Source: a virus
Taxonomy: Duplodnaviria > Caudoviricetes
IMG/VR virus record: IMGVR_UViG_3300031998_000077
Coordinates: 1,359-65,358 of that record
DNA: 64,000 nt
Strand: one strand, 5' to 3'
This document shows positions 36,884 to 54,960 of the stretch, in pieces; position 1 is the first letter of the stretch; each line of letters starts with the position of its first letter. Under the pieces are notes generated by a model that saw nothing but the letters and a program-made list of their open reading frames with translations, made no database searches and was not told the DNA's origin. The translations under genes and the position numbers were made by a program.

Positions 36884-36911
36884 GCCCCGGCCTCGAACCG
36901 GGGCTTTTTTT
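36884..36911 (+). terminator. rho-independent terminator of cassette 2
   Basis: GCCCCGG/CCGGGGC stem + T7. Confidence 0.85.
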
Positions 36912-38793
36912 ATGCCTGTTTCCGGAAGACGTAAAGGTTGCCCTCACCGCCTACGGGCTGTAGGCCGTGCTGTTTCGAGATGAAGTAGAGCGCGGCGGCG
37001 GAATACAACATGCAATGCCCGGCGCGCGGGTTGGCATAGTCCCATTTCGCCACAGACCGCCCGTTGACCGTCGATGTTGTTGCGATGAAGATTCCACCCG
37101 GATTCAGTTTCCCGGAGATCGTTTCCCATAGCGCGCTCGCCTCTATGACGTGTTCCAGCACCTCGACGGCGATAATGACATCAAAGCCGCCAGCGTCGCC
37201 GGAAACATCCTGTCTCCCGAACGGATCGTAGCAGTAGGCATCGAAGCCGTTTTGACGGAGCAGATCGGCCAGCGAACCCGAACCGCCGCCGTAGTCAAGG
37301 ATTCTCGCGCCCCGGTATGGTTTCAGGTATCCGGCGATCAAGGGAAGCAGTTTTCTTGACCTCGTTCCGTCAAATTCAACGTCGGTTTCGATGTATTCGG
37401 CATTGTAGACCTTTTCCGCGAACGTTTCAGGATTCCAGCCGCGCATTTCGTTGAGGAAGTAGCTCCCGCAATGCAAGCAGTAATAGTATTTCCAGCGGGA
37501 TTCTTGCGCCGCCTTGCTTTTCTTGTTCCATTTGACGGCGGAAAAACGCGCCGTCGCCCGCGAACAGATCGGACAGGGTTTCTTGTCTCCAAGGAGGCGG
37601 AATTGCTCGTTGATGCTGTTGCCCGCCCCCTTGATTCCGTGATCGGCGATGACGCGCTCACAGGCGGCCATTACCATGTCCGGCGTAATGCTCGTTGTGC
37701 ATTCGTTCCCGATGTCGTGGAAACAGGTTTCAAACCGCTCTTTCCGGTGGTCGCACGTTCCCCAGCACCCATGACACACGCCCGGCGGCGGGGAAACGCG
37801 GTACGGGGTATCGAACTCCACATAGGAATCCGTAAAGCCGGAGATCAGAACGACGGGCTTTCCGCAAGCCCACGCAATCCACGAAAGGCCGGACGGCAGA
37901 CCGATAAAGAAGCTCGCGCCCCGGATGACTTTCAGGCGGTACGGGAGGGGTTTCATTCCGGTGTCGTCCAGCGTCCCGGTTTCCGGCATGTTGATGTTGT
38001 CGCCGTCGATGCAAACCGGGATGAACCCGCGCGCTTTCAGGCGGTCGCACAGGATTTGCCAGCCGTCTTTGTAATGCCATTCCTTGCAATAGCGGCTCGC
38101 CCGCGTTGCGATGCACACATAGGGCTTTCCGGCCAGCTCCGGCGGTATCTCGCCCTTGCCCTCGCTGATCTTCGGCGGCCTGTTGTCCGCGTCCATCCCC
38201 AAGATCATTTCGGCATGACGGATGAGGTTGTTTTCCCGGAAGTCGATGACCTCGTAATCATTTTGCCCGTAGCCGTAGACGGCCACGCCGTAGCGCGCAT
38301 AGCATCTGATCGCCAGCTCCGTTGTTTCCTCGCTCGGCGGCACGAACTTGATTTCCGGGTAGCATTCCCGGTACAGCTCGATGTGTTCCGGCCTCATGCA
38401 CACGATTCCCCGGCATTCCCATTTTTGGAAGAACCGGACAGCCGCCGGAAGCCACGCGGCGGTGTCGCCCAAGGCTCCGAAAGACAGGTCGATGAATACG
38501 GTCTTGCCGCGCGCGTCGAAAACGTGATTGAAAAACCATTTGCCGCCCCGGTACAGCTCGACGCGCCAGCGTGTGAAATACTTTCGTTTCGTGTAGAGGT
38601 AGGTCTTTTCGTCAGGCTTTCCCTCCAACACCCCGGTGTCGTATTCTTCCCCGGTGTCGGCATCTGTGATCTTGAAGAGGAAAGACGGCGTTTTCGCCGG
38701 GATTCCGATGCGTACCCCGGAAACAAAGTCCACGTGAATGCCGCCCTCCGTGAACACGCTTTCCGGGAACATTTCGCTTTCGCTTATGTTCAT
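36910..38793 (-). CDS. Aah/TibC-like autotransporter O-heptosyltransferase fused to a class I SAM methyltransferase
   Basis: GIHVDF, GALGD, PYVCIAT..YCKEW, FFIGLPSGLSWIAW..KPVVLISGF, CHGCW..C..C; C-terminal LDYGGGSG, EVLEH. Confidence 0.88.
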   Translation of the reverse strand: MNISESEMFPESVFTEGGIHVDFVSGVRIGIPAKTPSFLFKITDADTGEEYDTGVLEGKPDEKTYLYTKRKYFTRWRVELYRGGKWFFNHVFDARGKTVFIDLSFGALGDTAAWLPAAVRFFQKWECRGIVCMRPEHIELYRECYPEIKFVPPSEETTELAIRCYARYGVAVYGYGQNDYEVIDFRENNLIRHAEMILGMDADNRPPKISEGKGEIPPELAGKPYVCIATRASRYCKEWHYKDGWQILCDRLKARGFIPVCIDGDNINMPETGTLDDTGMKPLPYRLKVIRGASFFIGLPSGLSWIAWACGKPVVLISGFTDSYVEFDTPYRVSPPPGVCHGCWGTCDHRKERFETCFHDIGNECTTSITPDMVMAACERVIADHGIKGAGNSINEQFRLLGDKKPCPICSRATARFSAVKWNKKSKAAQESRWKYYYCLHCGSYFLNEMRGWNPETFAEKVYNAEYIETDVEFDGTRSRKLLPLIAGYLKPYRGARILDYGGGSGSLADLLRQNGFDAYCYDPFGRQDVSGDAGGFDVIIAVEVLEHVIEASALWETISGKLNPGGIFIATTSTVNGRSVAKWDYANPRAGHCMLYSAAALYFISKQHGLQPVGGEGNLYVFRKQA

Positions 38794-38822
38794 GTTGACC
38801 TCAATTTGTTGTGTTGTTGCTT

Positions 38823-39314
38823 TTATCGCTCGATGCGTTCGATGCGCCCGAAAACCATTGTCTGCCCGCTTGCGCCCGGCTCGATCTCCGCGCCCATTTC
38901 GGTGAGGATGTCAACGCACTCGTCGGCGAGCTGGTTCGGGACGGCTTCTTTGTCGAAGACTACCCCCTTGGCCGAAGAAAGCCCTTGGTGGGAAGCGTCC
39001 AGCGCGTCCAGTCTGTTGAGCGTCATTTTGTAAATGGCTTGCTCACAGGTGGCCTCTTTCAGCTTGTCCGGGATTTCGCGCGTCTCCGTGCCGTCGTAGG
39101 CGTATTTGAACTGGTTCAGCTCGCGTTCGCCGTCTTGCCCGGCGACTTCCTCGGTGAAGATGGCATAGCGGTAGATGTCGCGCGTCGCCGTGCAAAGCCC
39201 GGCTGTCTTTTCCGCCTCCGTTGCGTCATTCCAGTTGTCCGATTGGGCGCGTTCGGCAAAATACTGTTCCGCCCATTCAAGATCGCAGTAAGGAGTTGTG
39301 TACCCCATGTTCAA
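38823..39314 (-). CDS. head-tail connector (DnaT-like/gp6-like adaptor)
   Basis: YCDLEWAEQYF...ATRDI...LKEATCEQA; position after the capsid gene. Confidence 0.75.
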   Translation of the reverse strand: MNMGYTTPYCDLEWAEQYFAERAQSDNWNDATEAEKTAGLCTATRDIYRYAIFTEEVAGQDGERELNQFKYAYDGTETREIPDKLKEATCEQAIYKMTLNRLDALDASHQGLSSAKGVVFDKEAVPNQLADECVDILTEMGAEIEPGASGQTMVFGRIERIER

Positions 39315-39748
39315 TCCTCCTTGATTACGCCAGCTTTTACCAGCTCATCGTATTTCTCGCGCACCTTTTCGGCCTTGAAGAGCTGGTAGCCCTTTACCTT
39401 GGCCTCTTTCAGCTTGGCGCGCATCGCGTTCAGGTCGAGGATTGCCCGCTCCTTTTCGTTGTCGCTGTCCTTGATCTCTTCCTCGGTCTTGGTGGCCGGG
39501 ACTTGGGAACCAGCCGCGCGGCGTTTCCGTTCCTCTTCCGCCTTTCTCGTTGCTTCGGCCAAAAGGTCGGGCTTCGGCGGCGGCAGGGTTCCGTTGATTG
39601 CCGCGAAGATTTCCGCCCGCGTGGTGCTGGCCGGGAAGCGTCTCTGTTCGATTTTGCCGTTTTTGGAGTAGCACACGGTGATTCCGTTCGGCGTGGCGAT
39701 AAAGGGGAAAATCGTAATGTTGTTTGCCATTTTCAACCTCAATTTCAA
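39311..39748 (-). CDS. head-associated hypothetical protein
   Basis: Between the MCP and the connector. Confidence 0.6.
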   Translation of the reverse strand: MKLRLKMANNITIFPFIATPNGITVCYSKNGKIEQRRFPASTTRAEIFAAINGTLPPPKPDLLAEATRKAEEERKRRAAGSQVPATKTEEEIKDSDNEKERAILDLNAMRAKLKEAKVKGYQLFKAEKVREKYDELVKAGVIKED

Positions 39749-39823
39749 GAAAAAAGCGGGCTTTGATGTAATCTCCGCCCGCAGTGTTCAACCGTCGATG
39801 TTTGTGTGTTCGTTCTGCTCCGA

Positions 39824-41041
39824 TCAGGAAGCGGAAACTTCCTGCGTGAAGACAGGCGCGGCCTCGGTGTTGGTAACGTTCACCTTGGTGATGTTCGCGC
39901 GCTTGGAGAGCAGAGCCGTCGCAGACGCTTGCAGGTTCTTCACCCAGCAGATTCTCTGTTTCGGGTTCTTGAACTCGAAAGTGTACTCGCCGAGGATGGT
40001 GCGGCGGATGCCGTCAAAGCCGTTCTCCGTGGTGTCTTCGTCGAACACGGCGCGGCCTTGCAGGGGAACGAGGCCGAACCCGGTCGGGTCAACGACGAAC
40101 GCTTGGGTGTCCGGGATGTTCTTGTCGGCGAAAATCTGAATCATGCCGCCGGTAACGTCGTTGATGACGTTGGCGACGAACGTGCCGCGCGTTTCATCTC
40201 CTTGCACGATGGTAACGTGGTTCCGCATGTCGGCGGAAAGCACACGCGCCTGACCGATGCCGCAGATGATGACGGTCGGGTTGCCGCCCTGTCCGGAAAC
40301 GGCCTGTGCCGCGTCGTTGACAAGGAAGCTGTCGAAAGCGACGTTGTTCGCGTCCACATACAGGCCGCCGGAGAGCGTCCCGTAGTAGAAGAGGCCGCCA
40401 GCCATGCCCTTGACGCTGGTGGTCGGTTGCACGGGGTAGCCGAACAGCGCGGTGGCGTTCAGATCGCGCACGAAGTCGCCGAGGCGGAGGCTGGTTTGGT
40501 ACTGGATGGAGTTTTCGATGCCGTACACTCCCACGCTGATGGCCGTACCGGAAAGAACGACCTCTTTGCGGTAAATCTGCGTGTAGTTGAAATTGGCATC
40601 GGACTGGTGAATCCGGTTCTCGCCGTCCTTGGTTCCCTCCGGCATGGGGGTGGAAACGAGGACGATGGTGTCGCCGTTGCTCGGCATGGTCGTTTCGGAA
40701 CCGTTCGCGCCGATCAGTTGCACGGTCGCCTTGCTGTTGGCGGTGTCGATGGCCGTAACTTGGAACAGGGCGGCATCTTCATCCACGCGGAAAGTCGTGC
40801 CGACTTGGAGCTTGGCGAGGTCGGTGGACGACATCGGGAGTTTGCTGTCGGAAACAGCTCCGCTCACGACGCAACGGTCGCCAGCGATCTGATCCTCCAG
40901 CCACTCATGTTTGCGGCTCTTGGCCGCTTCGCGGAGGGGGAAGAGTTGGATGATGCGGGAATCTTGCGCGATGACGGTCGAAAGTTCGTCGCCGAGGTCG
41001 CGTTTCTGATTTTGGAAATCGTAGGAAAAAGCGGTTGCCAT
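39824..41041 (-). CDS. major capsid protein (DUF5309/SU10-like)
   Basis: KHEWLED, NYTQIYRK..LSGT, GEYTFE; follows the scaffold gene. Confidence 0.88.
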   Translation of the reverse strand: MATAFSYDFQNQKRDLGDELSTVIAQDSRIIQLFPLREAAKSRKHEWLEDQIAGDRCVVSGAVSDSKLPMSSTDLAKLQVGTTFRVDEDAALFQVTAIDTANSKATVQLIGANGSETTMPSNGDTIVLVSTPMPEGTKDGENRIHQSDANFNYTQIYRKEVVLSGTAISVGVYGIENSIQYQTSLRLGDFVRDLNATALFGYPVQPTTSVKGMAGGLFYYGTLSGGLYVDANNVAFDSFLVNDAAQAVSGQGGNPTVIICGIGQARVLSADMRNHVTIVQGDETRGTFVANVINDVTGGMIQIFADKNIPDTQAFVVDPTGFGLVPLQGRAVFDEDTTENGFDGIRRTILGEYTFEFKNPKQRICWVKNLQASATALLSKRANITKVNVTNTEAAPVFTQEVSAS

Positions 41042-41057
41042 AGTAGGTTACTCCGTT

Positions 41058-41846
41058 TTATTGTTGAAGTTTGAGGATTTCGGTTTTGATCTTCATCATC
41101 TCCAAAGTGTCTTTTCTCTTTTTGGCATCTTCGTATTTCGCCATGAGAGCCGCCTTGGAGCTGTTCGGGCTTGAACCCGCAGGGGGCTTTGCGCCGCCCG
41201 GAACATTCGCTTGAATCAGGCCGTGTTCTTTCGCGTACTTGCTGGCAAAGTCTTCAAGTGCGGCTCCGTCTTCCGCCCTCACGATTTCGCCGATTTCGTT
41301 CCGCTTCAAGTTCCCGGCAAGGTACTGGAAATACAAAGTGTCAACCAACGCTTCCGCGTTCGCTCCCTGAATCCCTTTCACCACCGTCGAGATCGTTTCC
41401 CGCGCTTTCGCTTGGTCTTCCTTGACCTCGTATTTCTGTTTTTCCGCTTGCAGTTGGGTAAGCAGAGGCTCGTTTTGGCTTCTCCAGCTTTCAGCCGCAC
41501 GGAGCTTTTCGCGCGCATCCGAAAGGGCTTTCTGTAGCTCTTCCGTCTTCGGCGGGTTTTCCGTGTCTAACTTTTTCCGAAGTGCCGCGAGTTCTTCGAG
41601 GCTCCCCAGTTGCGTGAACTGCTCGATCTGCCCTTGCAGGGTAGATACCTTTTCGTTCAGGGACGTAAGGCTGGCCTTTGTCGCCTTGTGTTCCTTTCGC
41701 TCGTTGGCAAGCGATTTTTCCAGCGTGAACACGTCCTTGGAAACCCATGTCCCCTTGTGCTGTTCACTGATGGTGTCTTCGACGAAATTCTCTCTGACAT
41801 CTTCGGGAATTTCATCTTGCGAGTTGTACCGATTGGCGAATCCCAT
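41058..41846 (-). CDS. capsid scaffold protein
   Basis: LEKSLANERKEHK coiled coil, C-terminal GGA tail, upstream of the MCP. Confidence 0.8.
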   Translation of the reverse strand: MGFANRYNSQDEIPEDVRENFVEDTISEQHKGTWVSKDVFTLEKSLANERKEHKATKASLTSLNEKVSTLQGQIEQFTQLGSLEELAALRKKLDTENPPKTEELQKALSDAREKLRAAESWRSQNEPLLTQLQAEKQKYEVKEDQAKARETISTVVKGIQGANAEALVDTLYFQYLAGNLKRNEIGEIVRAEDGAALEDFASKYAKEHGLIQANVPGGAKPPAGSSPNSSKAALMAKYEDAKKRKDTLEMMKIKTEILKLQQ

Positions 41847-42016
41847 GACCGCCGCTCCTTTCTTGTTTTTGTTCCGGTTGCTGTGTGCGACATTGCACAC
41901 ACAAACACACTGCCGTCAACCGGGCAAAAAAGATTTTTGACTGCACACCGCCCTTTTTCTTGTCTATATACATGAGGCGAGACAAAACTTTTTTCGGTTT
42001 TTTTGCTCTTTTCCGT

Positions 42017-42045
42017 TTGACTTTGCTTTTTCTTGGGTGTATATT
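42017..42045 (+). promoter_or_regulatory. promoter of cassette 3 (TTGACT-17-TATATT)
   Basis: Shares GTGTATATTAGT..ACAGACAAGAAAA with cassette 2. Confidence 0.8.
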
Positions 42046-42102
42046 AGTACACAGACAAGAAAACGAACCACAAAACGGCAGATGCCGGAAAGGAAACACA
42101 AA

Positions 42103-42276: not shown

Positions 42277-42308
42277 TCAACACGCAACCCGCGAAAGGAA
42301 CACGAACC

Positions 42309-42626: not shown

Positions 42627-42658
42627 AACAATCCACAACCCACAAAGGAGACTGCACA

Positions 42659-43096: not shown

Positions 43097-43099
43097 ACC

Positions 43100-43582: not shown

Positions 43583-43613
43583 TCAACACCAAAACGAACA
43601 CGGAGATCAGAAA

Positions 43614-44931: not shown

Positions 44932-45831
44932 CTATCTTGAAAGCCATTCGTCCCACGCCCGGAAGAAATCTTCTTTGTACTCTTCGGCCTGTTTGACGAT
45001 GCCGGGGATTTGCGAAACGTCGTCCAATGCGCCGTCGATGACGCACGGATTGAAATAATTGAACATTCCAAGCCCCATTTGCTCTCCCCAAAACGTCGTT
45101 GCCATTTCGTTTCCGAGCGTTGCTTGCGGGCGCAGAACTTTCTTTGCGATTCCGATGATGTCGAGGGCGTTGTATTTCTTCAAGGTAAGAGGATTTTCGA
45201 TCTCGTCGCGTCCAGTGCCGAGCATGAGAACATCCATTGCCATGAACGGAATGCCGTATTGATGCTTGACTTCATGCGTTGCCGTCAGTAGCGGGGCGAC
45301 CTCGATAAGGCCGCCGTCGATCACGCAATTTCCTTGAAACTCCCGCCCGGCGTAGTACGACGGAGCGGCGGACGTGAACCCGGCGACGTCTTTCAGCGGC
45401 ACGTCCGCGTATTTTTTGGTGATGTTCTCAAAGACAAGGTATTTCCATTCCGTGATATTGAGCGCGGGAATGACGATCTTCAAGCGGGGATAATATTTCC
45501 GGATGTCGCCCACCTTTGCTTGACCGATCATGTCGTCAAGCACTGCATCAAGCGTTTCGGTTTTGTAGGTCGGACACGCCAGCGGATTGATCCGCGCGTT
45601 GAACCGCTTGCAGAAACACTCCCCGGCGCGTTGCTGGAATACTTCGTCGATCAGGTAAAACGGCTTGCCGATTGCGTATGCGGCGGCCAGAATGCCGCCG
45701 ATTGAACACCCGGCGATCATGTTGACACCGGCCAGCGTTTGCTTGTTGTTGGGGAGCATCCCAAGGAAGTGCGCCGGGATTGCGCCGAACACGCCCCCGC
45801 CGCATATAATGAGTATCTTGTAACGCTTCAT
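44932..45831 (-). CDS. patatin-like phospholipase
   Basis: GGGVFG oxyanion loop, GCSIG nucleophile, DGGL. Confidence 0.92.
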   Translation of the reverse strand: MKRYKILIICGGGVFGAIPAHFLGMLPNNKQTLAGVNMIAGCSIGGILAAAYAIGKPFYLIDEVFQQRAGECFCKRFNARINPLACPTYKTETLDAVLDDMIGQAKVGDIRKYYPRLKIVIPALNITEWKYLVFENITKKYADVPLKDVAGFTSAAPSYYAGREFQGNCVIDGGLIEVAPLLTATHEVKHQYGIPFMAMDVLMLGTGRDEIENPLTLKKYNALDIIGIAKKVLRPQATLGNEMATTFWGEQMGLGMFNYFNPCVIDGALDDVSQIPGIVKQAEEYKEDFFRAWDEWLSR

Positions 45832-46094
45832 CGTCCGCCCTCCTTGATGTTGATGGCGAAAGCCACGATGACGAACACGAGGACAAGCAACACCCCGGCA
45901 CAGAAACACGCGACGAAAGGCGCGTCGGTTTCCGGATAGTCCCGCGCGGCTGGTTCCGGTTCGGCTTGCTCTGTTTCCGTGTAGATCGTATGCCACACGT
46001 TTGCCGGATTCGTCCGGGCGTAAAGCGGGTTCGGGTTTACCGGGTTCATGGGGTTCATGGGGTTCATGGGGTGCATGGGGTTCGTGTAATCCAT
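45828..46094 (-). CDS. small membrane protein with (PMN)n repeat
   Basis: NPMHPMNPMNPMNP; C-terminal TM segment. Confidence 0.65.
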   Translation of the reverse strand: MDYTNPMHPMNPMNPMNPVNPNPLYARTNPANVWHTIYTETEQAEPEPAARDYPETDAPFVACFCAGVLLVLVFVIVAFAINIKEGGR

Positions 46095-46709: not shown

Positions 46710-47314
46710 CAGTCGAACAGCTCACACCAGTTGCGGGCGTTTGCTTCGAGATTACAGGAAACGAGAATCAGGTCGCCTTTCGCTTCCTTGATGACGTTTT
46801 CCGGGACTTGGTTGTCATGCGCCCATTGGAACATGTACTTGTCGTTGAAGTAGTCCGGCAACACGGAGCGGTCTTGGCCGACAGAGGCAAGAACCCGGTC
46901 GATGATCGCCCAAAAATCGGCCTTGATCTCTTCCCAGCGCGCGATGCCCTCCGGCGCGGCGGTCTGCCCCGGCTTCCGGATGGCATCTTTCACGGCGAGG
47001 ACGTGAGCCGTGTGTTTGTGATGGTATTTGAGGTCTTCTTGCACAGCAGGGGAGCCGTACAGGTATTCGCGGATGGCCGCGTAGCTCTGCGACACGCATT
47101 TGTCGTAGTTCTCCGTGTCTTGCCCCTTGTACTCGGTTTCGACCTCGAAGAAACGGTAGATCGTTCTTTCCCCGGTTTCGTCCGTCCTCGTCTCTTGACG
47201 AATGAAGATCGGGATGAACAGGTTCTTTCCCTCTCTGCGGATGACGGGGTAATCCTCGCTCTCCGTTTCGGGCAGGAAGTAGGTTTGCAGTCCGTTCGGG
47301 ATGTTGTTCAGCAT
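46709..47314 (-). CDS. hypothetical protein overlapping the RT stop
   Basis: GGAGG RBS before MLNNIP. Confidence 0.7.
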   Translation of the reverse strand: MLNNIPNGLQTYFLPETESEDYPVIRREGKNLFIPIFIRQETRTDETGERTIYRFFEVETEYKGQDTENYDKCVSQSYAAIREYLYGSPAVQEDLKYHHKHTAHVLAVKDAIRKPGQTAAPEGIARWEEIKADFWAIIDRVLASVGQDRSVLPDYFNDKYMFQWAHDNQVPENVIKEAKGDLILVSCNLEANARNWCELFD

Positions 47315-48321
47315 GGCTTTTTGTCCTCCAATTTGGTGAAAGGTTTCTCGAAAAACTTGTGCCACAATCTATCACCGCGCGTCAACCACTTTATGATACC
47401 CCAATAGCTCGACAGAGGGCGGCGGTTCTTCTCCGTGGGCTTTTCGTTGTAACGCTTTGCCGCGTGGCAGTAATTCCGCTCCGTCTTGCGCCGCAACACG
47501 ATTTCGTCGCGCCGGAACACGTAGCCGAGGAAGTCAAGCCCGTATCGTTCGATGGGGAATATCTGTGCGTTCGGTTTCAGCGTCAGTTTCAGTTCCGCGA
47601 ATTTCTCTCCCGTCTCCCGGAGCAGATCGCGGAGACTGTCTTTGTCTGATGACACGATCACGATGTCGTCGCAGTACCGGGAGTAGTGTTTGTAGCCGCT
47701 GTCCTTGACGAATCGGTCGTAGCTCGACAGGTAGTAGTTCGCCAGCAGTTGCGAGATGTAGTTTCCGATTGGCAGTCCCGGCGAATGCGAATCAATGATG
47801 ATGTCGAACAGGTGAAGAACGCGCTTGTCTTTGATCTTGCGCCGGAGTTTCCTTTTCAAAATGTCATGGTCGATGCTCTGATAGTATTTCCGCACGTCCA
47901 TTTTCAGAATGTAGATCGGCACGTCCGGCGGGTATTCCGCGAGGAACCGCTTGATGCGCTCTATCCCTTTTCGGATGCCCCGTTTCTTGATGCCGGCATA
48001 CGTGTCTTCGATGAGCGTCTTTGTCAGGTATCTCCCGGCCACGCGCTCGATTGCGTGTTGTACCAAATTGTCTTTGTAGCTGGGGTTCCAATGGATGATG
48101 CGGAGCTTCCCGCTGTCGAAACGCGGGAATTGCCGATAGCCGAAAATGCTCCACCTGTCCTCTGCGAGTTCATGGTGGAGTTTCCGGATGTTATCACGAA
48201 AGTGTTTCTCGAATCGAAACAACTGATAGTATCGTCTCTTGTTCCGTCGCGCCTCACGGTGCGCTTCAACAAGATTTTTGGTTGAAACGATTTCGTCGAA
48301 GCTGTTGCCAAGTCGTTTCAT
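47308..48321 (-). CDS. DGR reverse transcriptase
   Basis: GLPIGNYISQLLANYYL, YSRYCDD, DFLGY; adjacent TR/VR pair. Confidence 0.95.
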   Translation of the reverse strand: MKRLGNSFDEIVSTKNLVEAHREARRNKRRYYQLFRFEKHFRDNIRKLHHELAEDRWSIFGYRQFPRFDSGKLRIIHWNPSYKDNLVQHAIERVAGRYLTKTLIEDTYAGIKKRGIRKGIERIKRFLAEYPPDVPIYILKMDVRKYYQSIDHDILKRKLRRKIKDKRVLHLFDIIIDSHSPGLPIGNYISQLLANYYLSSYDRFVKDSGYKHYSRYCDDIVIVSSDKDSLRDLLRETGEKFAELKLTLKPNAQIFPIERYGLDFLGYVFRRDEIVLRRKTERNYCHAAKRYNEKPTEKNRRPLSSYWGIIKWLTRGDRLWHKFFEKPFTKLEDKKPC

Positions 48322-48487
48322 ATCTTTTTTGTTACTGCAATGGCCGCCCTGTGGGGCTTCCGAATAGGCCGTATCACACAAACCTACCTACTAACTCCGA
48401 GCGACAGTTCCGGCTTGTCCTTGCGGGGCAAGCTCACTTCACCTTTGTCCGGTGTGGGATTCTGTGTCAAAAAAAGATGTGTTTGCC

Positions 48488-48605
48488 GCGAGGCGCGCGC
48501 CGATATTCGTCCTCGCATTCGTCAACCCGTTGTTCACGTTGACGTAGAACAACCCATCGTTCCGACCGTTATTCGGGTTGCCGCCACGGTACACGACACG
48601 AGCGC
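48488..48605 (-). repeat. DGR template repeat (TR), 118 bp
   Basis: Matches the VR except at 8 positions, all A in the TR coding strand; AAC/AAT-rich. Confidence 0.97.
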
Positions 48606-48659
48606 GCGCAAAAATGACACAAAACGCCGTTTTTTGTTTTCTTTTAGCTCCGGGTTACG

Positions 48660-48696
48660 GGCTGAAAAGCCGCCTTGGGAGCGGCATTTTCAGCCG
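48660..48696. other. long hairpin between VR and TR
   Basis: GGCTGAAAA-GCCGC...GCGGC-A-TTTTCAGCC. Confidence 0.6.
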
Positions 48697-48788
48697 TTTT
48701 CGTTCTCGTTTTCGTTCTCGGTTGGCGGAGGGCGCGCATTCGTGCCAAACGTGCTTGACGTGATGCGCCCCCCGTCCGACCGATTGCA

Positions 48789-50663
48789 TTATGCGGCCTG
48801 CGTTTGTTCGACGGCAGCGAGGCGCGCGCCGATATTCGCCCCCGCAATCGACAACCCGTGGTACACGTAGACGTAGAACAACCCATCGTTCCGACCGTTA
48901 TGCGGGTTGCCGCCACGGTACACGACACGAGCGCCTTTGCCAGTGTCGTTGTAGAAGTAGTCAGCGAGGAATCCCGTTGCTCCGGAACCAGTGCCGCCGA
49001 CCGCCGTCGGGAAGTAGGTCAGCGGGTCATAGAGGCGAATATAACCGCCCGCTTTCGGCCACGCTTGGGAAACCCACATAATGTTTGCTCCGGTGTAGCC
49101 CGTCGCCGGGAACGGCGCATTTTCGGCTCCGTAGCCCTTATCGCTGTCGAGCTGGCTGTACTGGTTGATGTCGGTGGTGAACCAGTAGCCGCTTTCGCGG
49201 TAATCGTCGTCGTAGGATGCGACGGGGATGTTCCGGTTGGTCGTCAGCGTATTGTCGCTGTAGGTCGCGGCGGTTGCCGCCGGGTGTTCGTCCGCCGTGA
49301 AGATCGTGGTTTCGCTCGTGGCGTTGTACCACGCATAAGCCCACGTCTCCGGGCTGTCGCTGATTTTGTGGTCGCTGTCCGGGTGGCGGTCGTACTTGAC
49401 GGAAACATCGCTTTCGTTGCAGTAGATGTCGGCCTCCGACTTGATTTGATATTTTTGGATGCCGTCATCGAACTCCCAAATGTTCCCCCACAGATTTTCC
49501 ACGCCGCGATAGCTCATGGCGACAACTTTCTGTGCGCCGTTCTGCCAGTGTCCTTCGAGGTCGTAATCCTCGCCCGCCTCCGTCGTTTCGGCGATACTGC
49601 CGTAGCTGGTCGTCAGCCCGGTGTTGGAGTACGCGGTGTCTCCGGCCGCCGGAGTTGCGCTGGCGGTGTAGACGAATGCCGCGCCGTCTTCCCATGCGTA
49701 GGCGGAACCGCTGTCGCTCGCCGGGTGGCGGGTAAAGACTTGGTTCAGCACGGTAATCGTCGGGGCTTCGCTGTCGGCGATGATTTCCCCGGTGGCGTTG
49801 CCGAGGCCAGCCGTCCGCCCGTTCTTCCGGACGTATGCGTAATCGAACGCGGAAAGTTCGGACAGGCCGAGCGAGACAGCCGCTTGGCAGTCCGTGTTCG
49901 CATATTCGATTTCGATGAGCCAGCCCAGCCACACTTTCATCAGCCAGTTGCACAGCGTCGCGTGTCCGGCGACCGCCTTGGAGCGGAACGTTGCGCGGTT
50001 GCTGTTCGTGGACGGCTTTTGCCCGGCGATGGAGCGGAGGACGTTGTTGGAGATCACGCCTTGGAATGCGCCGATGAATTGCTTTTGGAGGGTGTCGCCG
50101 CCGTAGGAAACGCGGAACGCCGGGAACGCGGAAGCGTTCGGGAAAGGCTTGTCCGAGATCAGTTTCTTGTAGATGGCGTGTCCGGTAACGGAATCCGTTT
50201 CCTTGATGAGGCGGTAGTAGCCGATGGGAGCATCGACCATGACATCTCCGTCCGTGCCGTCGAGCTTGGCCGCCGTGCCGTCGGCTTTCAGGTTGCTGTT
50301 GCCAGCGTTGAGGTAGTATTGCACCTCGCGCTTGTTGCTCGAAGAGTTCCACGCCTGAACGCATCTGCGGAGGTTGTGGCAAGGCATCTGCGTGAACGCT
50401 TCAACGTCCTGAATCGTTTCGCCGTCCGTGGAAAGAACAATCCGTTGCATGGATTGGGTGGGGCTTGCCACGGTGGTGTCTTTTCTTGCGCCGTAGACGT
50501 AGGCTTGACCGAGCTTGTTCGGCCACACGGCCACGCCGCCGGGGGTTGCGCCGTCGCCAAACCGGAGTTCTCCGGACTTGGTAACGAGCAGTTCGCCTTT
50601 CGCGGGCGTTGCGGCATTCAGAGCGGCATCGTCGGCGGAAACGGGTGCGATGAGTTTCGACAT
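48789..50663 (-). CDS. DGR target: tail fibre/adhesin with Mtd_N-like N-terminus and C-terminal C-type-lectin-fold VR
   Basis: GELLVTKSGELRFGDG; GVENLWGNIWEFDDG; VYRGG...GARL VR at the C-terminus. Confidence 0.92.
   Translation of the reverse strand: MSKLIAPVSADDAALNAATPAKGELLVTKSGELRFGDGATPGGVAVWPNKLGQAYVYGARKDTTVASPTQSMQRIVLSTDGETIQDVEAFTQMPCHNLRRCVQAWNSSSNKREVQYYLNAGNSNLKADGTAAKLDGTDGDVMVDAPIGYYRLIKETDSVTGHAIYKKLISDKPFPNASAFPAFRVSYGGDTLQKQFIGAFQGVISNNVLRSIAGQKPSTNSNRATFRSKAVAGHATLCNWLMKVWLGWLIEIEYANTDCQAAVSLGLSELSAFDYAYVRKNGRTAGLGNATGEIIADSEAPTITVLNQVFTRHPASDSGSAYAWEDGAAFVYTASATPAAGDTAYSNTGLTTSYGSIAETTEAGEDYDLEGHWQNGAQKVVAMSYRGVENLWGNIWEFDDGIQKYQIKSEADIYCNESDVSVKYDRHPDSDHKISDSPETWAYAWYNATSETTIFTADEHPAATAATYSDNTLTTNRNIPVASYDDDYRESGYWFTTDINQYSQLDSDKGYGAENAPFPATGYTGANIMWVSQAWPKAGGYIRLYDPLTYFPTAVGGTGSGATGFLADYFYNDTGKGARVVYRGGNPHNGRNDGLFYVYVYHGLSIAGANIGARLAAVEQTQAA
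48817..48934 (-). repeat. DGR variable repeat (VR)
   Basis: 3' end of the target; TR NPN..VNVNNGLTNART becomes VR NPH..VYVYHGLSIAGA. Confidence 0.97.
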
Positions 50664-50712
50664 TTGTTTGTCTCCTGTTTTGTTTTATGGTTTGGGTGGG
50701 ATTGGGTTTCGA

Positions 50713-51381
50713 TTATGAGGCAGACCACGCGCCGAACTGCACCACGTTGTCGTAGTTGTCAGTCCACACGCCGCAAGCCAGCGTTCCTTGCACGGGTTCG
50801 CCGCCCTCGATGATGATTTGCACGTCTGCGGCGAGCTGGGCGACCGTCGTATAGAGGCCGCTGTTGACGATCTTGCCGCCGGGCGTTGTGCCGTCTCCGA
50901 CGTACACATTGCCGTCCGTGCTGTCGTAGATGATCGCGCCGATGTCAGGCACATAGGCCGTTCTCTGCGCCGTCGTTTGAACGGTGATGCTTCCGGTCGA
51001 GGAAAGGTTTACCATCGTCGTGCCGCTCCACGTGAAGAGCGTCGTGCCGTCCATGTTGAAATACACGTGGCCGGATACCGGGTCTTCGGGGCTTCCCCAC
51101 GATGCCGAAACGCCCTCGCCGCTGGATGCCGTGCAAGAGTACAGGCGTTTCGTGGTGGTGTTGTAGTACCGCTGGCCGAGGCTCGCCGTGGTCGGCGCGT
51201 TCGACGCGAAGCAGATCAGCTTTTCGATGTCTTGCGCGAAAGGCTGTCCGCCCCGGTACAGCACCTCATCATCGGTGATGAAATACAGCCAGTTCGATTG
51301 TTTCACCTCGATTGCGGTGAACTCTGCCCGCGTACCCGCCCAAAATTGTACGCGCGTTGCGTCGGTTTGAGTTTGAGGCAT
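50713..51381 (-). CDS. tail-fibre-associated protein with Mtd_N-like motif
   Basis: GAIIYDSTDGNVYVGDGTTPGG resembles the target N-terminus. Confidence 0.65.
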   Translation of the reverse strand: MPQTQTDATRVQFWAGTRAEFTAIEVKQSNWLYFITDDEVLYRGGQPFAQDIEKLICFASNAPTTASLGQRYYNTTTKRLYSCTASSGEGVSASWGSPEDPVSGHVYFNMDGTTLFTWSGTTMVNLSSTGSITVQTTAQRTAYVPDIGAIIYDSTDGNVYVGDGTTPGGKIVNSGLYTTVAQLAADVQIIIEGGEPVQGTLACGVWTDNYDNVVQFGAWSAS

Positions 51382-51407
51382 TTGTTTTTTCTCCTGTTTG
51401 GTTGTTT

Positions 51408-52622
51408 TTAGGCAAGTCCGGCGCGCCGGAACGCCTCGATGTCAAGTTGTTTCAACTCTTGAATGGTGAATTGAACGTTTGTTGCGGGGTTGATGAATCT
51501 GTTGAGGGGCAGTTCTCCTTTCGTGTAAAGTGCGTATCTCGTCTTGCCGAGGTAGGATTCGATGTAGGCATCGTCTTTCGTTTTCAGCCAGTCGGCGAAA
51601 CTCATGTTTTGCGGGACTTCCTCGAACGCGGGCTTGCCCGTCCGCTCTTCGTAGTCCTTTTGCGCCTTGTAGTAGTATTTCAGCTTCGTGCTACGTGCGA
51701 GGTCGCTGAATCGCTTGCCGGGGTGTTCCTCGTTGTATGCCTTTTCCGCTTCTTTCCAGTAGTTTTCCTCTTCTGCCGGACGTTTCGAGCGGTTGATCTC
51801 GTGCATCTCCGTTACGGGGAGGTGAACACAGCGGCAGTTCGGGTGAATCGGGAGGTTCGGGACAAGGTTCAGTTGCCCCGGATTTTTCCAAATCCGCCCG
51901 TCGAGGTTCCCGCAGACAAGACAGGTGTTCCCCGAAAGCGTCGCCACGTGCATGATGCCGATGATGACATCTTGATTCTCGATGTAGAATTGCATCTTTG
52001 CCTCGTCCGCGATTCCCATGCACCCGGTTCGCGCTATCGTTTCGGCCTCGCTTCGCGTCGCCTCGAAAACACCGTCCTTGTAATCGGATTCCTTTGTGCC
52101 GCGAATCTCTTTCACAATGGTGTTCAGCGTCTTGTTTTTCCGGACACCCTCGCGGCAGATTTCGGAAATCCGCTTCGCGTCTTCCTGTGCCGCCGCCTCG
52201 ATGCTTTCGCTGATCGTCTGCCCGTCTTCGACCGTCGCGTATTTCACGATGGCCGATACCCGGATGTTCTTGTTCAGCCCGGTTGCGCCGCTTCGCTTGG
52301 CGATGGCCGCCGCCCATTTCGCCTCGTTTTCTGCGAGGTGTTCGCATTGGCGCGCCATGTAGTCCGCCATTGTTGCGAAACTCTTCGCGCGGAGTTGCAG
52401 TATCTTCGCGTTCATTGCCAAATACTGCTTTTGCGCCGCCGCGCTGTAGTCGGCGATGTGGTACTCTTCCAGCAGATCGGACAGGGAAGCGATAAGCTCC
52501 GTGTTCGTGCTGTCGGCATCACCGCGCAACTCTGCCGCCCATGCCGCCGCCAGCCGCATGAGGCTCGCTTGATGCTCCGCCGCGATGTAGGCGATGTCTT
52601 TTTCGCTCGCTTTCTTCTTCAT
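51408..52622 (-). CDS. minor head/morphogenesis protein (SPP1 gp7/MuF-like)
   Basis: AETIART, HVATL...TCLVCGNLDG, PIHPNCRC. Confidence 0.9.
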   Translation of the reverse strand: MKKKASEKDIAYIAAEHQASLMRLAAAWAAELRGDADSTNTELIASLSDLLEEYHIADYSAAAQKQYLAMNAKILQLRAKSFATMADYMARQCEHLAENEAKWAAAIAKRSGATGLNKNIRVSAIVKYATVEDGQTISESIEAAAQEDAKRISEICREGVRKNKTLNTIVKEIRGTKESDYKDGVFEATRSEAETIARTGCMGIADEAKMQFYIENQDVIIGIMHVATLSGNTCLVCGNLDGRIWKNPGQLNLVPNLPIHPNCRCVHLPVTEMHEINRSKRPAEEENYWKEAEKAYNEEHPGKRFSDLARSTKLKYYYKAQKDYEERTGKPAFEEVPQNMSFADWLKTKDDAYIESYLGKTRYALYTKGELPLNRFINPATNVQFTIQELKQLDIEAFRRAGLA

Positions 52623-54130
52623 AACTGTGCGTTATCCGGGGGATTCGTCCGGTTGCCGTACTGGATGCCCGCCTCTTCGTCCGCCGCGCGTTCGAGTTCG
52701 AGTTTCTTTTGGTTCTGCTCGAAATCGTTCTGCGTGAGGTTCGCCTTTTTGAGGAGGTTGTGGAAATCTTCTTGCGTGAGCGGCAGACCTTCCGCTTTCA
52801 TGCTGTGCCACATGGATTGGAGGCTGTTGATCTCCGGCGTGGTGTCTTCCACCTTTGCCGCCTTGAAAACAACCTTTTTGTACGTCTCTTCCCGTGGCAT
52901 TCCAGCCCATTCCGCCGCGTACCGGAGCTGTTCGGTGATCGCGTTCGCCGTGTTCTGATTGATCGGCTCGATGCGCGCGCTCTTGCTGTTCTGTACGATT
53001 TCCAAGGCCGCGCCGGACTGGTTCGCGCCCACGTCCAGCATTGTCATAATTCTCTGCTGGCACATCGTGTGCAATTGCGTCAGGCTCGCAAGTTGGAGGT
53101 TTGCCCCGCCGCCCGGAGAACTCACCACCGCGATGTCTTCGTTTTCGCCGAGGTGAACGATGCCGCCCGCGCCGATGGATAGTTTTTTCTGCCGGGACGG
53201 GTCGGCGCACCCGGTATGCTTGTAGAAATCGCTTGCCGTGAAATGGAGCGTCTGCCTGTAGTCCGCGTCGCCGCGATACAGCGCAAGCACCAAATCGACA
53301 AGATCGTACAGCGGCGGGTCGTCGTAGTGGCCGCCGGAAAGGTCGGTCGCGTTGACGAACGTGAACGGAATCCTGTTCAGGCGTTTTCCCCGGCATTCCG
53401 GGTAGACCGCCTCGCCCATCTGCGGCTTGTCAGGCGTTGCCGTTTCCGGAGGATTTTCGAGGTCGAAACTGGCGTAGTCGCCCGGCTCCATGAGCGCGGT
53501 GTAGTATTCCCCTCTCGCGTCGAGGCCGAGAACGCGCCATTTCCGAACGAAATCGCGCTGTTTCGTCTGCGGGTTGAATACATCGTCCGATTCGTCCAGC
53601 AGTACCAGCCGCGCATAGCTTTCCCCGGTTTCCCGGTCGATCTCGAAAACCTTGTCTTTGATGCTTTCCGGTTGCCACACGTTGATGTAGAAATCCGGCG
53701 CGTCGCTCGCCGCGTCCTTGCCGTTCACTTCGAGCTGTAGCCCGGCGCACCCCGTAATCATTATGAGCTTGTCGAGCTTCGCTTTCAGCGCGATCAATCC
53801 GTCATGGTAGATCGTCGCCGCCTGTTCCATGAATGCGATGCTCGGCGGCAGTTGGATGGTAGGCTCGCCTTTTTTCAGCACACCCAAGACCGTTTCCACC
53901 GCGTCCCGCATATAGCTGTAGAACACCGCGCGCGATTTGTAATCGTCGTAATCCTGTTCGCCAGCCTTGCCGCCGTCTTTGTGCCAGCGGCTTTTCGGCA
54001 GATAGATTTCGGATTTTTCCTTGATGTTGTCGCTTCCCGCGTACACGTCCCGGCATCTCTTCCATTTTTGGAGGAAGAAATCGTACCCCGTGCAAGTGTA
54101 GGAGGCCAGCGTGGTTGATTTCATGCTCAT
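52619..54130 (-). CDS. portal protein (DUF4055-like)
   Basis: WKRCRDVYAG...YLPK...YKSRAVFY; PPLYDL...YRGDADY; precedes the MuF-like gene. Confidence 0.9.
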   Translation of the reverse strand: MSMKSTTLASYTCTGYDFFLQKWKRCRDVYAGSDNIKEKSEIYLPKSRWHKDGGKAGEQDYDDYKSRAVFYSYMRDAVETVLGVLKKGEPTIQLPPSIAFMEQAATIYHDGLIALKAKLDKLIMITGCAGLQLEVNGKDAASDAPDFYINVWQPESIKDKVFEIDRETGESYARLVLLDESDDVFNPQTKQRDFVRKWRVLGLDARGEYYTALMEPGDYASFDLENPPETATPDKPQMGEAVYPECRGKRLNRIPFTFVNATDLSGGHYDDPPLYDLVDLVLALYRGDADYRQTLHFTASDFYKHTGCADPSRQKKLSIGAGGIVHLGENEDIAVVSSPGGGANLQLASLTQLHTMCQQRIMTMLDVGANQSGAALEIVQNSKSARIEPINQNTANAITEQLRYAAEWAGMPREETYKKVVFKAAKVEDTTPEINSLQSMWHSMKAEGLPLTQEDFHNLLKKANLTQNDFEQNQKKLELERAADEEAGIQYGNRTNPPDNAQL

Positions 54131-54153
54131 TCCTTTTTATCCTTTCTTCGGTT

Positions 54154-54960
54154 TCATTCGGTGATAATGACGGCTCCGGTTCCGGACATGAGGTTGCCCC
54201 CGATGGTCGCGCCGTTCTTGATGAACAGCGTTCCGCCGCTGGAAATGATGCCGCCGCCCAGCGTTCCGCCCGATTGCACGATGGATGTGCCGCCGCTCGA
54301 CACGAACAGCGCGCCGGAGACAAGTCCCCCGGATGCGATGGTCGCCGTGCCGCCGCTCGCCACCGTCATTCCCATGCCGGAACCGCTCGAACCGACAATG
54401 ACGCTTCCGCCCGAACGCACGACCGTGTTTTCTGCCGAGCCGCCGCTTCCGATCAGCACCTCTCCGCCCATATCCGCACAGGCGGAATGCACCTTGCAAT
54501 TGCCGGAAATGATGATGGTTCCGCCGTTGGCGATCAGGTTCACGAAACGCGAACCCGTGTCGAAAGAGTTGTTTTCGTCGAGCGTCAGCGTTCCGCTTTT
54601 CACCGTCGCCCCGTTGATGAATGCGCTGGAAAAGCCGAAGCACGGCGCGCTTTCGATGATTGCGCCGCTACACGATGCCCCGGACGAAAGGTAAAGCTGG
54701 CCGCCGCTCGACACGTTGATGTTCCGCGCGGTTCCTCCGCTCGAAACGATACACGCCGCGCCGGATTGCACGTCGGTTCCTTTCGCCGTGCCGCCCGAAT
54801 ACACCCGCATGGTGTAGGCGTTTTTCAGGTATGCCCCGGACATGATGATTCCGCTCGAAATGACGGATGCGCCGCTCGAAACGAATATCCCGTTTGTTCC
54901 CGCCGTGATCGGCGGGAGCGGGGTGATGACGGGATTGAATCGGTAAGGGATGTTCGACAT
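54154..54960 (-). CDS. AIDA-I/Ag43-like beta-helix repeat protein (V-x-S-G-G repeats), no autotransporter barrel
   Basis: ~16 repeats such as VYSGG, VSSGG, VRSGG, VASGG, IASGG, VQSGG, ISSGG; AGGAG RBS at 54960. Confidence 0.85.
   Translation of the reverse strand: MSNIPYRFNPVITPLPPITAGTNGIFVSSGASVISSGIIMSGAYLKNAYTMRVYSGGTAKGTDVQSGAACIVSSGGTARNINVSSGGQLYLSSGASCSGAIIESAPCFGFSSAFINGATVKSGTLTLDENNSFDTGSRFVNLIANGGTIIISGNCKVHSACADMGGEVLIGSGGSAENTVVRSGGSVIVGSSGSGMGMTVASGGTATIASGGLVSGALFVSSGGTSIVQSGGTLGGGIISSGGTLFIKNGATIGGNLMSGTGAVIITE

What the first reader, a model, noticed from the sequence alone, without database searches (positions are those of the whole stretch)
36910..54960. Candidate phage-encoded virion O-glycosylation system: Aah/TibC-like heptosyltransferase plus AIDA-repeat substrate in the morphogenesis module
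Seen: a complete Aah/TibC-type enzyme (36910..38793) lies between the capsid/neck genes and the tail genes, and a protein built almost entirely of V-x-S-G-G repeats (54154..54960) lies just before the portal. Known: Aah/TibC transfer ADP-heptose to Ser in the strand-loop-strand repeats of AIDA-I/TibA/Ag43 and are normally encoded beside bacterial autotransporters. Inferred: the phage carries both enzyme and cognate substrate and builds a heptosylated virion appendage from host ADP-heptose. This could serve adhesion, a glycan shield or immune modulation. I know of no described phage using this enzyme family.
Basis: partly seen in the sequence, partly recalled or inferred. Interest (0 to 1): 0.9.

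Follow-up and report, generated by a model that had tools for sequence, protein, structure and literature searches.

The report
Phage heptosyltransferase with own AIDA-like tail protein
A temperate phage of rumen Lentisphaeria carries an intact relative of the bacterial enzyme that puts heptose sugars on AIDA/TibA adhesins, and also a small adhesin-like beta-helix encoded beside a tail-fibre gene, so it probably sugar-coats one of its own tail appendages; I found no paper describing this, and nothing here shows it biochemically.

Summary
Window 36910-38793 (-) encodes a 627-aa protein that passes NCBIfam TIGR04414 (264 bits, cut-off 200). It keeps every TibC catalytic, sugar-binding and iron-finger residue and is fused to a zinc ribbon and a class I methyltransferase. 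Window 54154-54960 (-) encodes a 268-aa protein that passes TIGR04415 and Pfam AIDA. Its model folds as a beta-helix whose best solved match is glycosylated TibA. It has no barrel domain.

- The beta-helix gene follows a fibre gene. Distant IMG/VR phages have the same order (fibre, AIDA-repeat protein, heptosyltransferase) inside their tail modules.
- Of five distinct relatives where both sites are visible, four carry both genes. One keeps the beta-helix but lacks the enzyme, so the enzyme is accessory.
- Two more distant lineages carry the enzyme beside the head-tail adaptor gene, with no beta-helix gene in the 19-21 kb I could see.

The hosts (Lentisphaeria) have their own heptosyltransferases and dozens of AIDA-repeat proteins, so action on host adhesins remains a rival. 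I found no published phage example. Earlier AI notes of this scan flagged similar systems on other DNA. Nothing is shown biochemically.

Verdict: new variant of a known kind, interest about 0.66.

The parts
36910..38793 (-). P0001, 627 aa: BAHT-type O-heptosyltransferase (residues 17-381) fused through a CPIC...CLHC zinc ribbon (about residues 405-445) to a class I SAM methyltransferase (residues 478-613)
   Evidence: TIGR04414 264 bits (cut-off 200); Methyltransf_23 80 bits; TibC E 7e-52; D110, S233, K237, R286, W305, P300 and Cys340/343/357/365 kept; beta-hairpin thumb deleted
37651..38745 (-). BAHT catalytic part of P0001 (residues 17-381)
   Evidence: Extent of the TIGR04414 alignment
36955..37362 (-). 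Methyltransferase domain of P0001 (residues 478-613)
   Evidence: PF13489. It is a separate adjacent gene in L136 and L006 and is absent in L140
54154..54960 (-). P0003, 268 aa: stand-alone AIDA/TibA-type beta-helix. The N-terminal 30 residues are disordered and carry a conserved IPY[RKQ][FY]N motif. It has 10 SGG turns and is the putative acceptor
   Evidence: TIGR04415 65 bits, PF16168 39.7 bits; AF2 pLDDT 78; Foldseek best match 4q1q_A, glycosylated TibA, E 3.6e-8; motif statistics; family alignments
54972..56678 (-). P0005, 568 aa: fibre protein encoded immediately upstream of P0003
   Evidence: Orthologues carry about 11 collagen G-x-y triplets and all copies keep an HTH motif. Homologues at 29-38% identity directly precede the AIDA-repeat gene in seven IMG/VR phages. 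My own model was poor
56712..59867 (-). P0004, 1051 aa: coiled-coil, tape-measure-like protein, first gene of the three-gene block between terminase and portal
   Evidence: Weak phrog_167 tape-measure hit; short repeat matches to the long tail proteins of L032 and L029
38823..39314 (-). Head-tail adaptor (Ad1-like), the constant neighbour of the thumbless BAHT in three lineages
   Evidence: phrog_477. Homologues abut the BAHT in L006 and L142 on the other side
50713..51381 (-). 222-aa protein with a Phage_tail_C / Mtd_N-like N-terminus. In IMG/VR phages its homologue lies just downstream of the BAHT
   Evidence: Pfam; tblastn to L030, L028 and L032; L030 286-aa protein has Phage_tail_C
36884..36904 (.). 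GC-rich hairpin directly after the stop of P0001, ending the head operon and the converging + strand cassette

Best explanation
The phage makes, from its late structural operons, a TibC/Aah-family O-heptosyltransferase and a short TibA/AIDA-type beta-helix protein, P0003. P0003 is encoded next to fibre gene P0005 and most likely rides on that tail fibre through its conserved, disordered N-terminal peptide. In the cytoplasm of the infected Lentisphaeria cell the enzyme would take host ADP-heptose. Its Pro300 is the TibC-type determinant for the D-glycero-D-manno form. It would transfer heptose to serines in the SGG turns of P0003 before virion assembly. The fused methyltransferase probably methylates the attached sugar. 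The expected result is a heptosylated, possibly methyl-heptosylated, tail appendage. By analogy with AIDA-I and TibA, glycosylation would stabilise the helix and enable adhesion.

Shown: identity and intactness of the enzyme; fold and motifs of P0003; gene order; co-occurrence and synteny in relatives.
Inferred: that the enzyme acts on P0003; that P0003 is in the virion; the donor; the role of the methyltransferase.
For: Enzyme:
- It passes TIGR04414 above the curated cut-off.
- The alignment to TibC, read against the residues named in PMC4358343, keeps the catalytic base D110, the sugar and phosphate binders S233 (T226 in TibC), K237 (K230), R286 and W305, the stereoselectivity residue P300, and four iron-finger cysteines, invariant in 20 relatives.

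Substrate-like protein:
- It passes TIGR04415 and PF16168.
- The model is a beta-helix whose best PDB match is TibC-glycosylated TibA, followed by Ag43.
- Ser313 in an NSGG turn of TibA is a mapped heptosylation site. P0003 has 10 SGG.

Operon:
- P0001 starts 29 nt after the adaptor stop and has a GAGG ribosome-binding site.
- There is no promoter-like site upstream, and a hairpin follows the stop.
- P0003 is packed between the fibre gene and the portal gene.

Co-occurrence in the same phage lineage. Both genes are present in:
- the window;
- the 64-kb contig SRR7267925_87054;
- a fully collinear prophage in RUG11954 and RUG12414;
- contig DRR595523_8244, which has a diverged 288-aa beta-helix.

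Independent support:
- All nine IMG/VR records whose BAHT is closest to this one (34-39% identity) carry a TIGR04415 protein immediately upstream of the enzyme.
- In the seven I compared, the order is P0005-like fibre, then AIDA-repeat protein with the same N- and C-termini as P0003, then BAHT.
- In L030 this trio lies within a tail module after a PF10145 tape measure.
- Their BAHT belongs to a different, thumb-bearing clade. The fibre/beta-helix module is therefore paired with two BAHT subtypes.

The record has no gmhA or hldE.
Against: - The two genes are 15 kb apart here.
- Relative DRR595539_3726 keeps the beta-helix gene with 11 SGG but has no BAHT at the syntenic site.
- The site between the adaptor and the neck genes is a hot spot that also takes unrelated small-gene cassettes.
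- The enzyme occurs fused to the methyltransferase, split from it, alone, or not at all, which is how an accessory gene behaves.
- In two further lineages (L006, L142) the thumbless BAHT sits beside the adaptor gene and no AIDA-like gene is seen in the 19-21 kb visible.
- Four Lentisphaeria/Victivallaceae genomes carrying a phage-type BAHT each also hold one or two canonical BAHTs and 24-54 AIDA-repeat matches. Host enzymes could therefore modify P0003, and the phage enzyme could modify host proteins.
- The TibC beta-hairpin thumb, needed for the dodecamer ring that binds TibA, is deleted. Substrate handling must differ.
- There is no expression, proteomic or mass-spectrometry evidence.
Confidence: 0.55

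Rival explanations
1. The heptosyltransferase is an accessory gene that acts on host proteins. It would modify the many AIDA-repeat surface proteins of the Lentisphaeria host, either during lysogeny or late in infection, for example to mask receptors or change aggregation. P0003 would be left unmodified or be served by the host's own BAHTs.
For: - The phage is temperate: it has an integrase at 26873-28099, and integrated copies exist in RUG11954 and RUG12414.
- Four Lentisphaeria/Victivallaceae genomes carrying a phage-type BAHT show 24-54 AIDA-repeat matches in ORFs of up to about 4,700 aa.
- The enzyme is variably present at an insertion hot spot.
- One relative has the beta-helix but no enzyme.
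Against: - The host already has one or two canonical BAHTs scoring far higher on TIGR04414, so a second enzyme for the same proteins needs a reason.
- The gene has no promoter-like site of its own and reads as the last gene of the head operon.
- In nine other phages the BAHT sits directly behind the phage's own AIDA-repeat gene, inside the tail module where examined.
- The sigma-70 scan may not fit Lentisphaeria promoters, so the promoter argument is weak.
Confidence: 0.2
2. The thumbless enzyme, with or without its methyltransferase, modifies a different virion component at the head-tail junction or on the capsid. Its presence together with P0003 would be incidental.
For: - In three lineages the gene directly abuts the head-tail adaptor gene: after it in the window lineage and before it in L006 and L142. 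Their capsid genes are either 48% identical to the window's or unmatched in tblastn.
- No AIDA-like gene is visible near L006 or L142.
Against: - BAHTs are only known to act on serines of beta-helix repeats (PMC4358343).
- The adaptor and its neighbours have no such repeats.
- P0003 is the only TIGR04415 protein in the record.
- The fibre modules of L006 and L142 were outside the DNA I could fetch, so absence of a beta-helix gene there is not shown.
- The junction between head and tail genes is a common insertion site.
Confidence: 0.1
3. The enzyme uses a different donor or has lost transferase activity, and the match to BAHTs reflects ancestry only.
For: - The thumb is deleted.
- The score on TIGR04414 (264 bits) is far below that of host BAHTs (575 bits).
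- The fused methyltransferase points to altered chemistry.
Against: - All residues shown by mutation to be needed in TibC are kept, and they are invariant across 20 relatives spanning 37-75% identity.
- This is the pattern of purifying selection on an active site.
Confidence: 0.07

Closest known systems
TibC-TibA and Aah-AIDA-I of E. coli (bacterial autotransporter heptosyltransferases, BAHT; TIGR04414 with TIGR04415 substrates)
   Same: Same enzyme family, with the catalytic Asp, the sugar-binding residues and the four-cysteine iron finger. Same acceptor type: a beta-helix of roughly 19-residue strand-loop-strand repeats with Ser in SGG turns. The enzyme would act in the cytoplasm and use ADP-heptose.
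   Different: - It is encoded by a phage, in structural operons.
- The acceptor has no signal peptide and no barrel, is only 268 aa, and follows a tail-fibre gene.
- Enzyme and acceptor genes are 15 kb apart.
- The beta-hairpin thumb that builds the TibC dodecamer is deleted.
- A zinc ribbon and a SAM methyltransferase are fused to the enzyme.
Fibre / AIDA-repeat protein / BAHT trios in tail modules of uncultured phages (IMG/VR records behind L026-L034). They are undescribed in papers I could find, but earlier AI notes of this scan flagged them.
   Same: They have a homologous fibre (29-38% identity) and a homologous AIDA-repeat protein with the same N-terminal IPY motif and the same C-terminus. 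A BAHT is present.
   Different: There the three genes are contiguous, the repeat protein is 487-688 aa, and the BAHT is the canonical thumb-bearing type without a methyltransferase. Here the set is dispersed and the enzyme comes from another clade.
Virion glycosylation in mycobacteriophages (phage glycosyltransferases decorating capsid and tail proteins). This is from my own knowledge; the library only shows genome announcements that mention it, such as PMC11256854.
   Same: A phage-encoded glycosyltransferase is proposed to O-glycosylate the phage's own structural proteins using host sugar nucleotides.
   Different: The enzyme families, sugars, acceptor motifs (C-terminal tails rather than beta-helix turns) and hosts all differ. 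That system has experimental proof and this one has none.

Membership tests
BAHT (TIGR04414, Aah/TibC O-heptosyltransferases) | Family HMM score above the curated cut-off over the full length | tested here: met
   264.3 bits against cut-off 200; model positions 10-374 of 374; 265.5 bits in the six-frame search
BAHT (TIGR04414, Aah/TibC O-heptosyltransferases) | Catalytic base Asp110 and sugar/phosphate binders Thr226, Lys230, Arg286 and Trp305 of TibC | tested here: met
   D110, S233 (conservative for T226), K237, R286 and W305 align. The residues are defined in PMC4358343
BAHT (TIGR04414, Aah/TibC O-heptosyltransferases) | Four-cysteine iron finger (TibC C339, C342, C358, C370) | tested here: met
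   C340 and C343 align to TibC. C357 and C365 are invariant in 20 relatives
BAHT (TIGR04414, Aah/TibC O-heptosyltransferases) | Beta-hairpin thumb (TibC about 260-266, tip F265/V266) that makes the dodecamer ring | tested here: not met
   A 7-8 residue deletion removes it in the window enzyme and its whole clade
BAHT (TIGR04414, Aah/TibC O-heptosyltransferases) | N-terminal beta-barrel domain (PF21129 TibC_1st) | tested here: inconclusive
   PF21129 scores 17.3 bits, below the cut-off of 27. The TIGR04414 and TibC alignments do cover this region, and close relatives carry precomputed PF21129 hits
BAHT (TIGR04414, Aah/TibC O-heptosyltransferases) | Transfers heptose from ADP-heptose to Ser of the repeat protein | not testable with these tools
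   Needs co-expression and mass spectrometry
BAHT (TIGR04414, Aah/TibC O-heptosyltransferases) | Gene adjacent to its autotransporter substrate | tested here: not met
   The only TIGR04415 gene is 15.4 kb away and is not an autotransporter
Self-associating autotransporter passengers (AIDA-I, TibA, Ag43) | Strand-loop-strand repeats (TIGR04415, PF16168) above cut-off | tested here: met
   65.2 bits against 30; 39.7 bits against 27
Self-associating autotransporter passengers (AIDA-I, TibA, Ag43) | Beta-helix fold of the TibA/Ag43 type | tested here: met
   AF2 pLDDT 78. Foldseek best matches are 4q1q_A TibA (E 3.6e-8), then Ag43 entries
Self-associating autotransporter passengers (AIDA-I, TibA, Ag43) | Type Va secretion parts: a C-terminal beta-barrel translocator (and a Sec signal peptide, which was not tested with a predictor) | tested here: not met
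   The protein is 268 aa and consists almost wholly of repeats. No autotransporter barrel family appears at E up to 0.1. The N-terminus is Pro-rich and lacks a hydrophobic core; no signal-peptide predictor was run

The most novel reading that the evidence does not exclude
The phage tail carries a heptosylated (perhaps methyl-heptosylated) copy of its host's own self-associating adhesin repeats. It would use this to dock onto the host's coat of glycosylated AIDA-type adhesins by the homotypic, Velcro-like beta-helix contacts known for Ag43, AIDA and TibA. The phage brings its own stripped-down heptosyltransferase so that the mimic is modified in time for assembly. That would be adsorption by glycoprotein mimicry of the receptor.
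Probability: 0.12. Interest if true: 0.88.

Novelty: new variant of a known kind. Interest (0 to 1): 0.66.

Why it matters
BAHTs are known only as partners of bacterial autotransporter adhesins, where hyper-heptosylation is needed for adhesion and stability. A phage that carries the enzyme and a stand-alone acceptor in its tail genes would extend protein O-heptosylation to virions. It would add a second, unrelated case of self-glycosylating phages beside the mycobacteriophage one. It would also supply a minimal 268-aa substrate and a thumbless, probably non-dodecameric enzyme for mechanistic work, and a natural heptosyltransferase-methyltransferase fusion. For rumen and gut Lentisphaeria, which are full of AIDA-repeat proteins, it suggests how phages borrow the host's surface chemistry. 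The claim can be tested directly by co-expression and mass spectrometry.

Tried and rejected
- Complex prediction (fibre P0005 with P0003) could not be run.
- Close relatives were not found in IMG/VR with the single enzyme, and only three distant ones with the capsid alignment. GenBank phages gave four distant enzyme hits and none for P0003.
- The AF2 model of P0005 was poor (pLDDT 50). The VIA wide search gave no match above Z 5.3; the C-terminal domain only weakly resembles phage spike and baseplate domains. The fibre call therefore rests on collagen repeats, the HTH motif and synteny.
- The methyltransferase could not be assigned a substrate. PDB sequence hits are weak UbiG-type matches, and the protein atlas returns only generic class I methyltransferases.
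- The window's 145-aa post-capsid protein is not homologous to the 140-aa protein at the same place in L006. I dropped the idea of a shared decoration-protein substrate.
- Walking the L006 contig further failed because the contigs end there. Loci from assemblies cannot be searched as whole records.
- Literature searches for BAHT, TibC or heptosyltransferase together with phage found nothing relevant.

Full report
**What the window is.** The window is almost the whole of an IMG/VR virus record of 65,358 bases, with completeness estimated at about 80%. From 64 kb down to 28.5 kb the minus strand carries, in order:
- a ParB-like nuclease and tRNA-Gln;
- the large terminase;
- a 1051-aa coiled-coil protein (P0004);
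- a 568-aa protein (P0005);
- the 268-aa repeat protein (P0003);
- portal and MuF;
- a 222-aa protein with a tail-tip-like N-terminus;
- a 624-aa tail protein followed by a reverse transcriptase (a diversity-generating retroelement);
- a patatin-like protein;
- scaffold and an SU10-type major capsid protein;
- a 145-aa protein and a head-tail adaptor;
- the 627-aa enzyme (P0001);
- a counter-oriented block of small genes;
- Neck1, tail terminator, tube-like and chaperone-like genes, and two large distal tail proteins;
- an integrase on the plus strand.

It is a temperate tailed phage. A fully collinear integrated copy lies in two rumen genome assemblies, RUG11954 and RUG12414. A 71% identical fused enzyme sits on a contig of a goat-rumen Lentisphaeria MAG. 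The host is therefore a member of the Lentisphaeria.

**The enzyme.** P0001 passes the NCBIfam equivalog model for autotransporter strand-loop-strand O-heptosyltransferases: 264 bits against a cut-off of 200, over the whole model. It aligns to the solved TibC at E 7e-52. I read that alignment against the residues defined experimentally in the TibC structure paper (PMC4358343).
- The catalytic base Asp110 is kept.
- The heptose and phosphate binders are kept: S233 for Thr226, K237 for Lys230, R286 and W305.
- Pro300 is kept. In TibC this residue selects ADP-D-glycero-D-manno-heptose.
- The first two iron-finger cysteines align to TibC, and the other two are invariant in an alignment of 20 relatives.
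- One hallmark is missing. The beta-hairpin thumb, whose tip (F265/V266) links TibC dimers into the dodecamer ring that encloses TibA, is removed by a 7-8 residue deletion.

The deletion is shared by all close relatives of the phage enzyme. A strongly supported branch (100/99) separates these thumbless sequences from the canonical thumb-bearing ones, which include the host's own enzymes.

After the transferase comes a CPIC...CLHC zinc ribbon and a class I SAM methyltransferase (Methyltransf_23, 80 bits). In relatives this methyltransferase varies:
- fused: L002, L138, L139;
- a separate gene directly downstream: L136, L006;
- absent: the RUG prophage and the contig carrying P0013.

The fusion ties it functionally to the transferase. 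I could not determine what it methylates.

**The repeat protein.** P0003 passes TIGR04415 (65 bits, cut-off 30) and Pfam AIDA.
- It has 10 SGG motifs at spacings of 8, 11 and 19 residues. No composition-preserving shuffle out of 10,000 reaches that number.
- With seven homologues as the alignment, AlphaFold gives a beta-helix (pLDDT 78) with a disordered first 30 residues.
- Its best solved match is the TibC-glycosylated TibA fragment (E 3.6e-8), followed by Ag43 structures.
- In TibA, a mapped heptosylation site is the serine of an NSGG turn.
- P0003 has no barrel domain, and its N-terminus does not look like a signal peptide. It is not an autotransporter.
- It is the only such protein in the record.

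**Is P0003 a virion part?** There is no direct evidence, but the comparative evidence is consistent.
- The upstream gene P0005 is a fibre. Its orthologues carry about eleven collagen triplets where P0005 has a short remnant, and all keep an HTH motif.
- In seven IMG/VR phages a P0005 homologue (29-38% identity, E down to 1e-51) directly precedes an AIDA-repeat protein of 487-688 aa. That protein shares with P0003 both the N-terminal motif x-I-P-Y-[RKQ]-[FY]-N and the C-terminal end.
- In the 99%-complete provirus behind L030 the pair lies within a run of tail-type genes. A PF10145 tape measure and four smaller genes come before it, and the BAHT and a tail-tip-domain protein homologous to the window's 222-aa protein come after it.

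P0003 is therefore a short member of a phage-specific family of fibre-associated beta-helix proteins. In the window the block P0004-P0005-P0003 looks like a piece of tail module placed between terminase and portal.

**Are enzyme and repeat protein linked?** Three observations favour a link.
- First, in the IMG/VR collection 152 contigs encode BAHT-like proteins. Of the 50 records tested, only the nine whose enzyme is closest to this one (34-39% identity) have a TIGR04415 protein, and in all nine it lies immediately upstream of the enzyme.
- Second, those enzymes are of the canonical thumb-bearing clade while the window's is thumbless. The same fibre/beta-helix module is thus paired with two different BAHT lineages.
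- Third, within the window's own lineage both genes are present in four of five distinct genomes where both sites can be seen: the window, the 64-kb contig SRR7267925_87054, the RUG prophage, and DRR595523_8244, which has a much diverged 288-aa beta-helix.

Several observations count against a strict link.
- The fifth genome, DRR595539_3726, keeps the beta-helix with 11 SGG but has no enzyme at the site.
- The site between the adaptor and the neck genes also receives unrelated small-gene cassettes.
- The enzyme appears in four states, which is accessory-gene behaviour.
- In two more distant lineages (L006, L142) the thumbless enzyme again abuts the adaptor gene, on its other side. No AIDA-like gene is seen in the 19-21 kb available. 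Their fibre modules were out of reach.

**Host context.**
- Four Lentisphaeria/Victivallaceae genomes that carry a phage-type BAHT each also have one or two canonical BAHTs (575 and about 390 bits). They have 24-54 matches to the P0003 profile in ORFs ranging from about 150 to 4,700 residues, most over 700. They also have an HldE-domain-II-like gene at about 150 bits, below the family's cut-off of 181.5.
- Of 301 genomes of the class, 97 have a BAHT. The phage type is rare among them.
- The phage record has no gmhA or hldE, so the donor must come from the host.
- This context supports the proposed chemistry. It also keeps two rivals alive: host enzymes may modify P0003, and the phage enzyme may modify host adhesins.
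- Against the second rival, P0001 has a ribosome-binding site 29 nt after the adaptor stop, has no promoter-like site, and ends at a hairpin shared with the converging cassette. It reads as the last gene of the late head operon. The promoter scan assumes sigma-70 consensus and may not fit this phylum.

**Comparison with what is known.** The closest known systems are TibC-TibA and Aah-AIDA-I.
- The enzyme meets the family's sequence criteria except the thumb. I file it as a BAHT-family member of a divergent, phage-borne, probably non-dodecameric subtype.
- P0003 shares the repeats and fold of the passengers but fails the secretion features. It works like a passenger domain but is not an autotransporter.
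- Phage self-glycosylation is known from mycobacteriophages, with other enzymes and acceptors (my own knowledge; mentioned in papers listed).
- Searches of about 8.4 million papers and preprints found no phage BAHT.
- Earlier AI notes of this same scan flagged similar pairings on other DNA. I tested parts of them here: the contiguous tail-module form, the adaptor adjacency, and the host's wealth of AIDA repeats.

**Verdict.** The best reading, at about 55%, is a phage-encoded system that heptosylates, and perhaps methylates, its own fibre-associated beta-helix. The enzyme is an optional add-on to a module that can also rely on the host. I rate it a new variant of a known kind, directly testable by co-expression and mass spectrometry.

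Noticed in passing
window 47308-50663: A reverse transcriptase (phrog_1423, E 1e-94) lies next to a 624-aa tail protein, which looks like a diversity-generating retroelement inside the structural region. It is conserved in L002, L019, L020 and the RUG prophage but missing in L136.
   Followed up: partly
window 44932-45996: A patatin-like phospholipase (PF01734, E 3e-17) is encoded among the structural genes. It is conserved at 91% identity in the RUG prophage and present in L002, L019 and L020.
   Followed up: no
window 35000-36900, and L002:11885-13831, L022:14365-16288: Right after the BAHT site there is a counter-oriented block of about six small genes. It is present even in the relative that lacks the BAHT and absent in L138. 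The adaptor-neck junction is an insertion hot spot.
   Followed up: partly
L035-L105 (IMG/VR loci), e.g. L065:2-4513, L067:14692-16374, L063:10133-12607, L081:7256-9775: Many of the more distant viral BAHT-like genes (28-34% identity) have no TIGR04415 protein. They sit next to very large ORFs packed with S-[GS]-G motifs (up to 135 in 1,504 residues). This suggests a wider pairing of GT9-type enzymes with Ser/Gly-rich fibres.
   Followed up: no
L136:1-645: In relative DRR595523_8244 the protein at the P0005 position itself ends in SGG/AGG beta-helix-like repeats. The repeat module can therefore be part of the fibre protein as well as a separate gene.
   Followed up: no
window 31108-32208 and 28539-31217: The two distal tail genes overlap by 110 nt. 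The second is replaced in relatives by proteins of 259-982 aa (544 aa with a Collar domain in L002). It is probably the host-range cassette next to the integrase.
   Followed up: no
G118:C57:1817-2890 and G114:C28:10092-11165: Two Lentisphaeria genomes have BAHT-like genes inside 679-718 aa ORFs. These may be other fusions; cluster P0033, also 679 aa, pairs GT2 with GT9.
   Followed up: no
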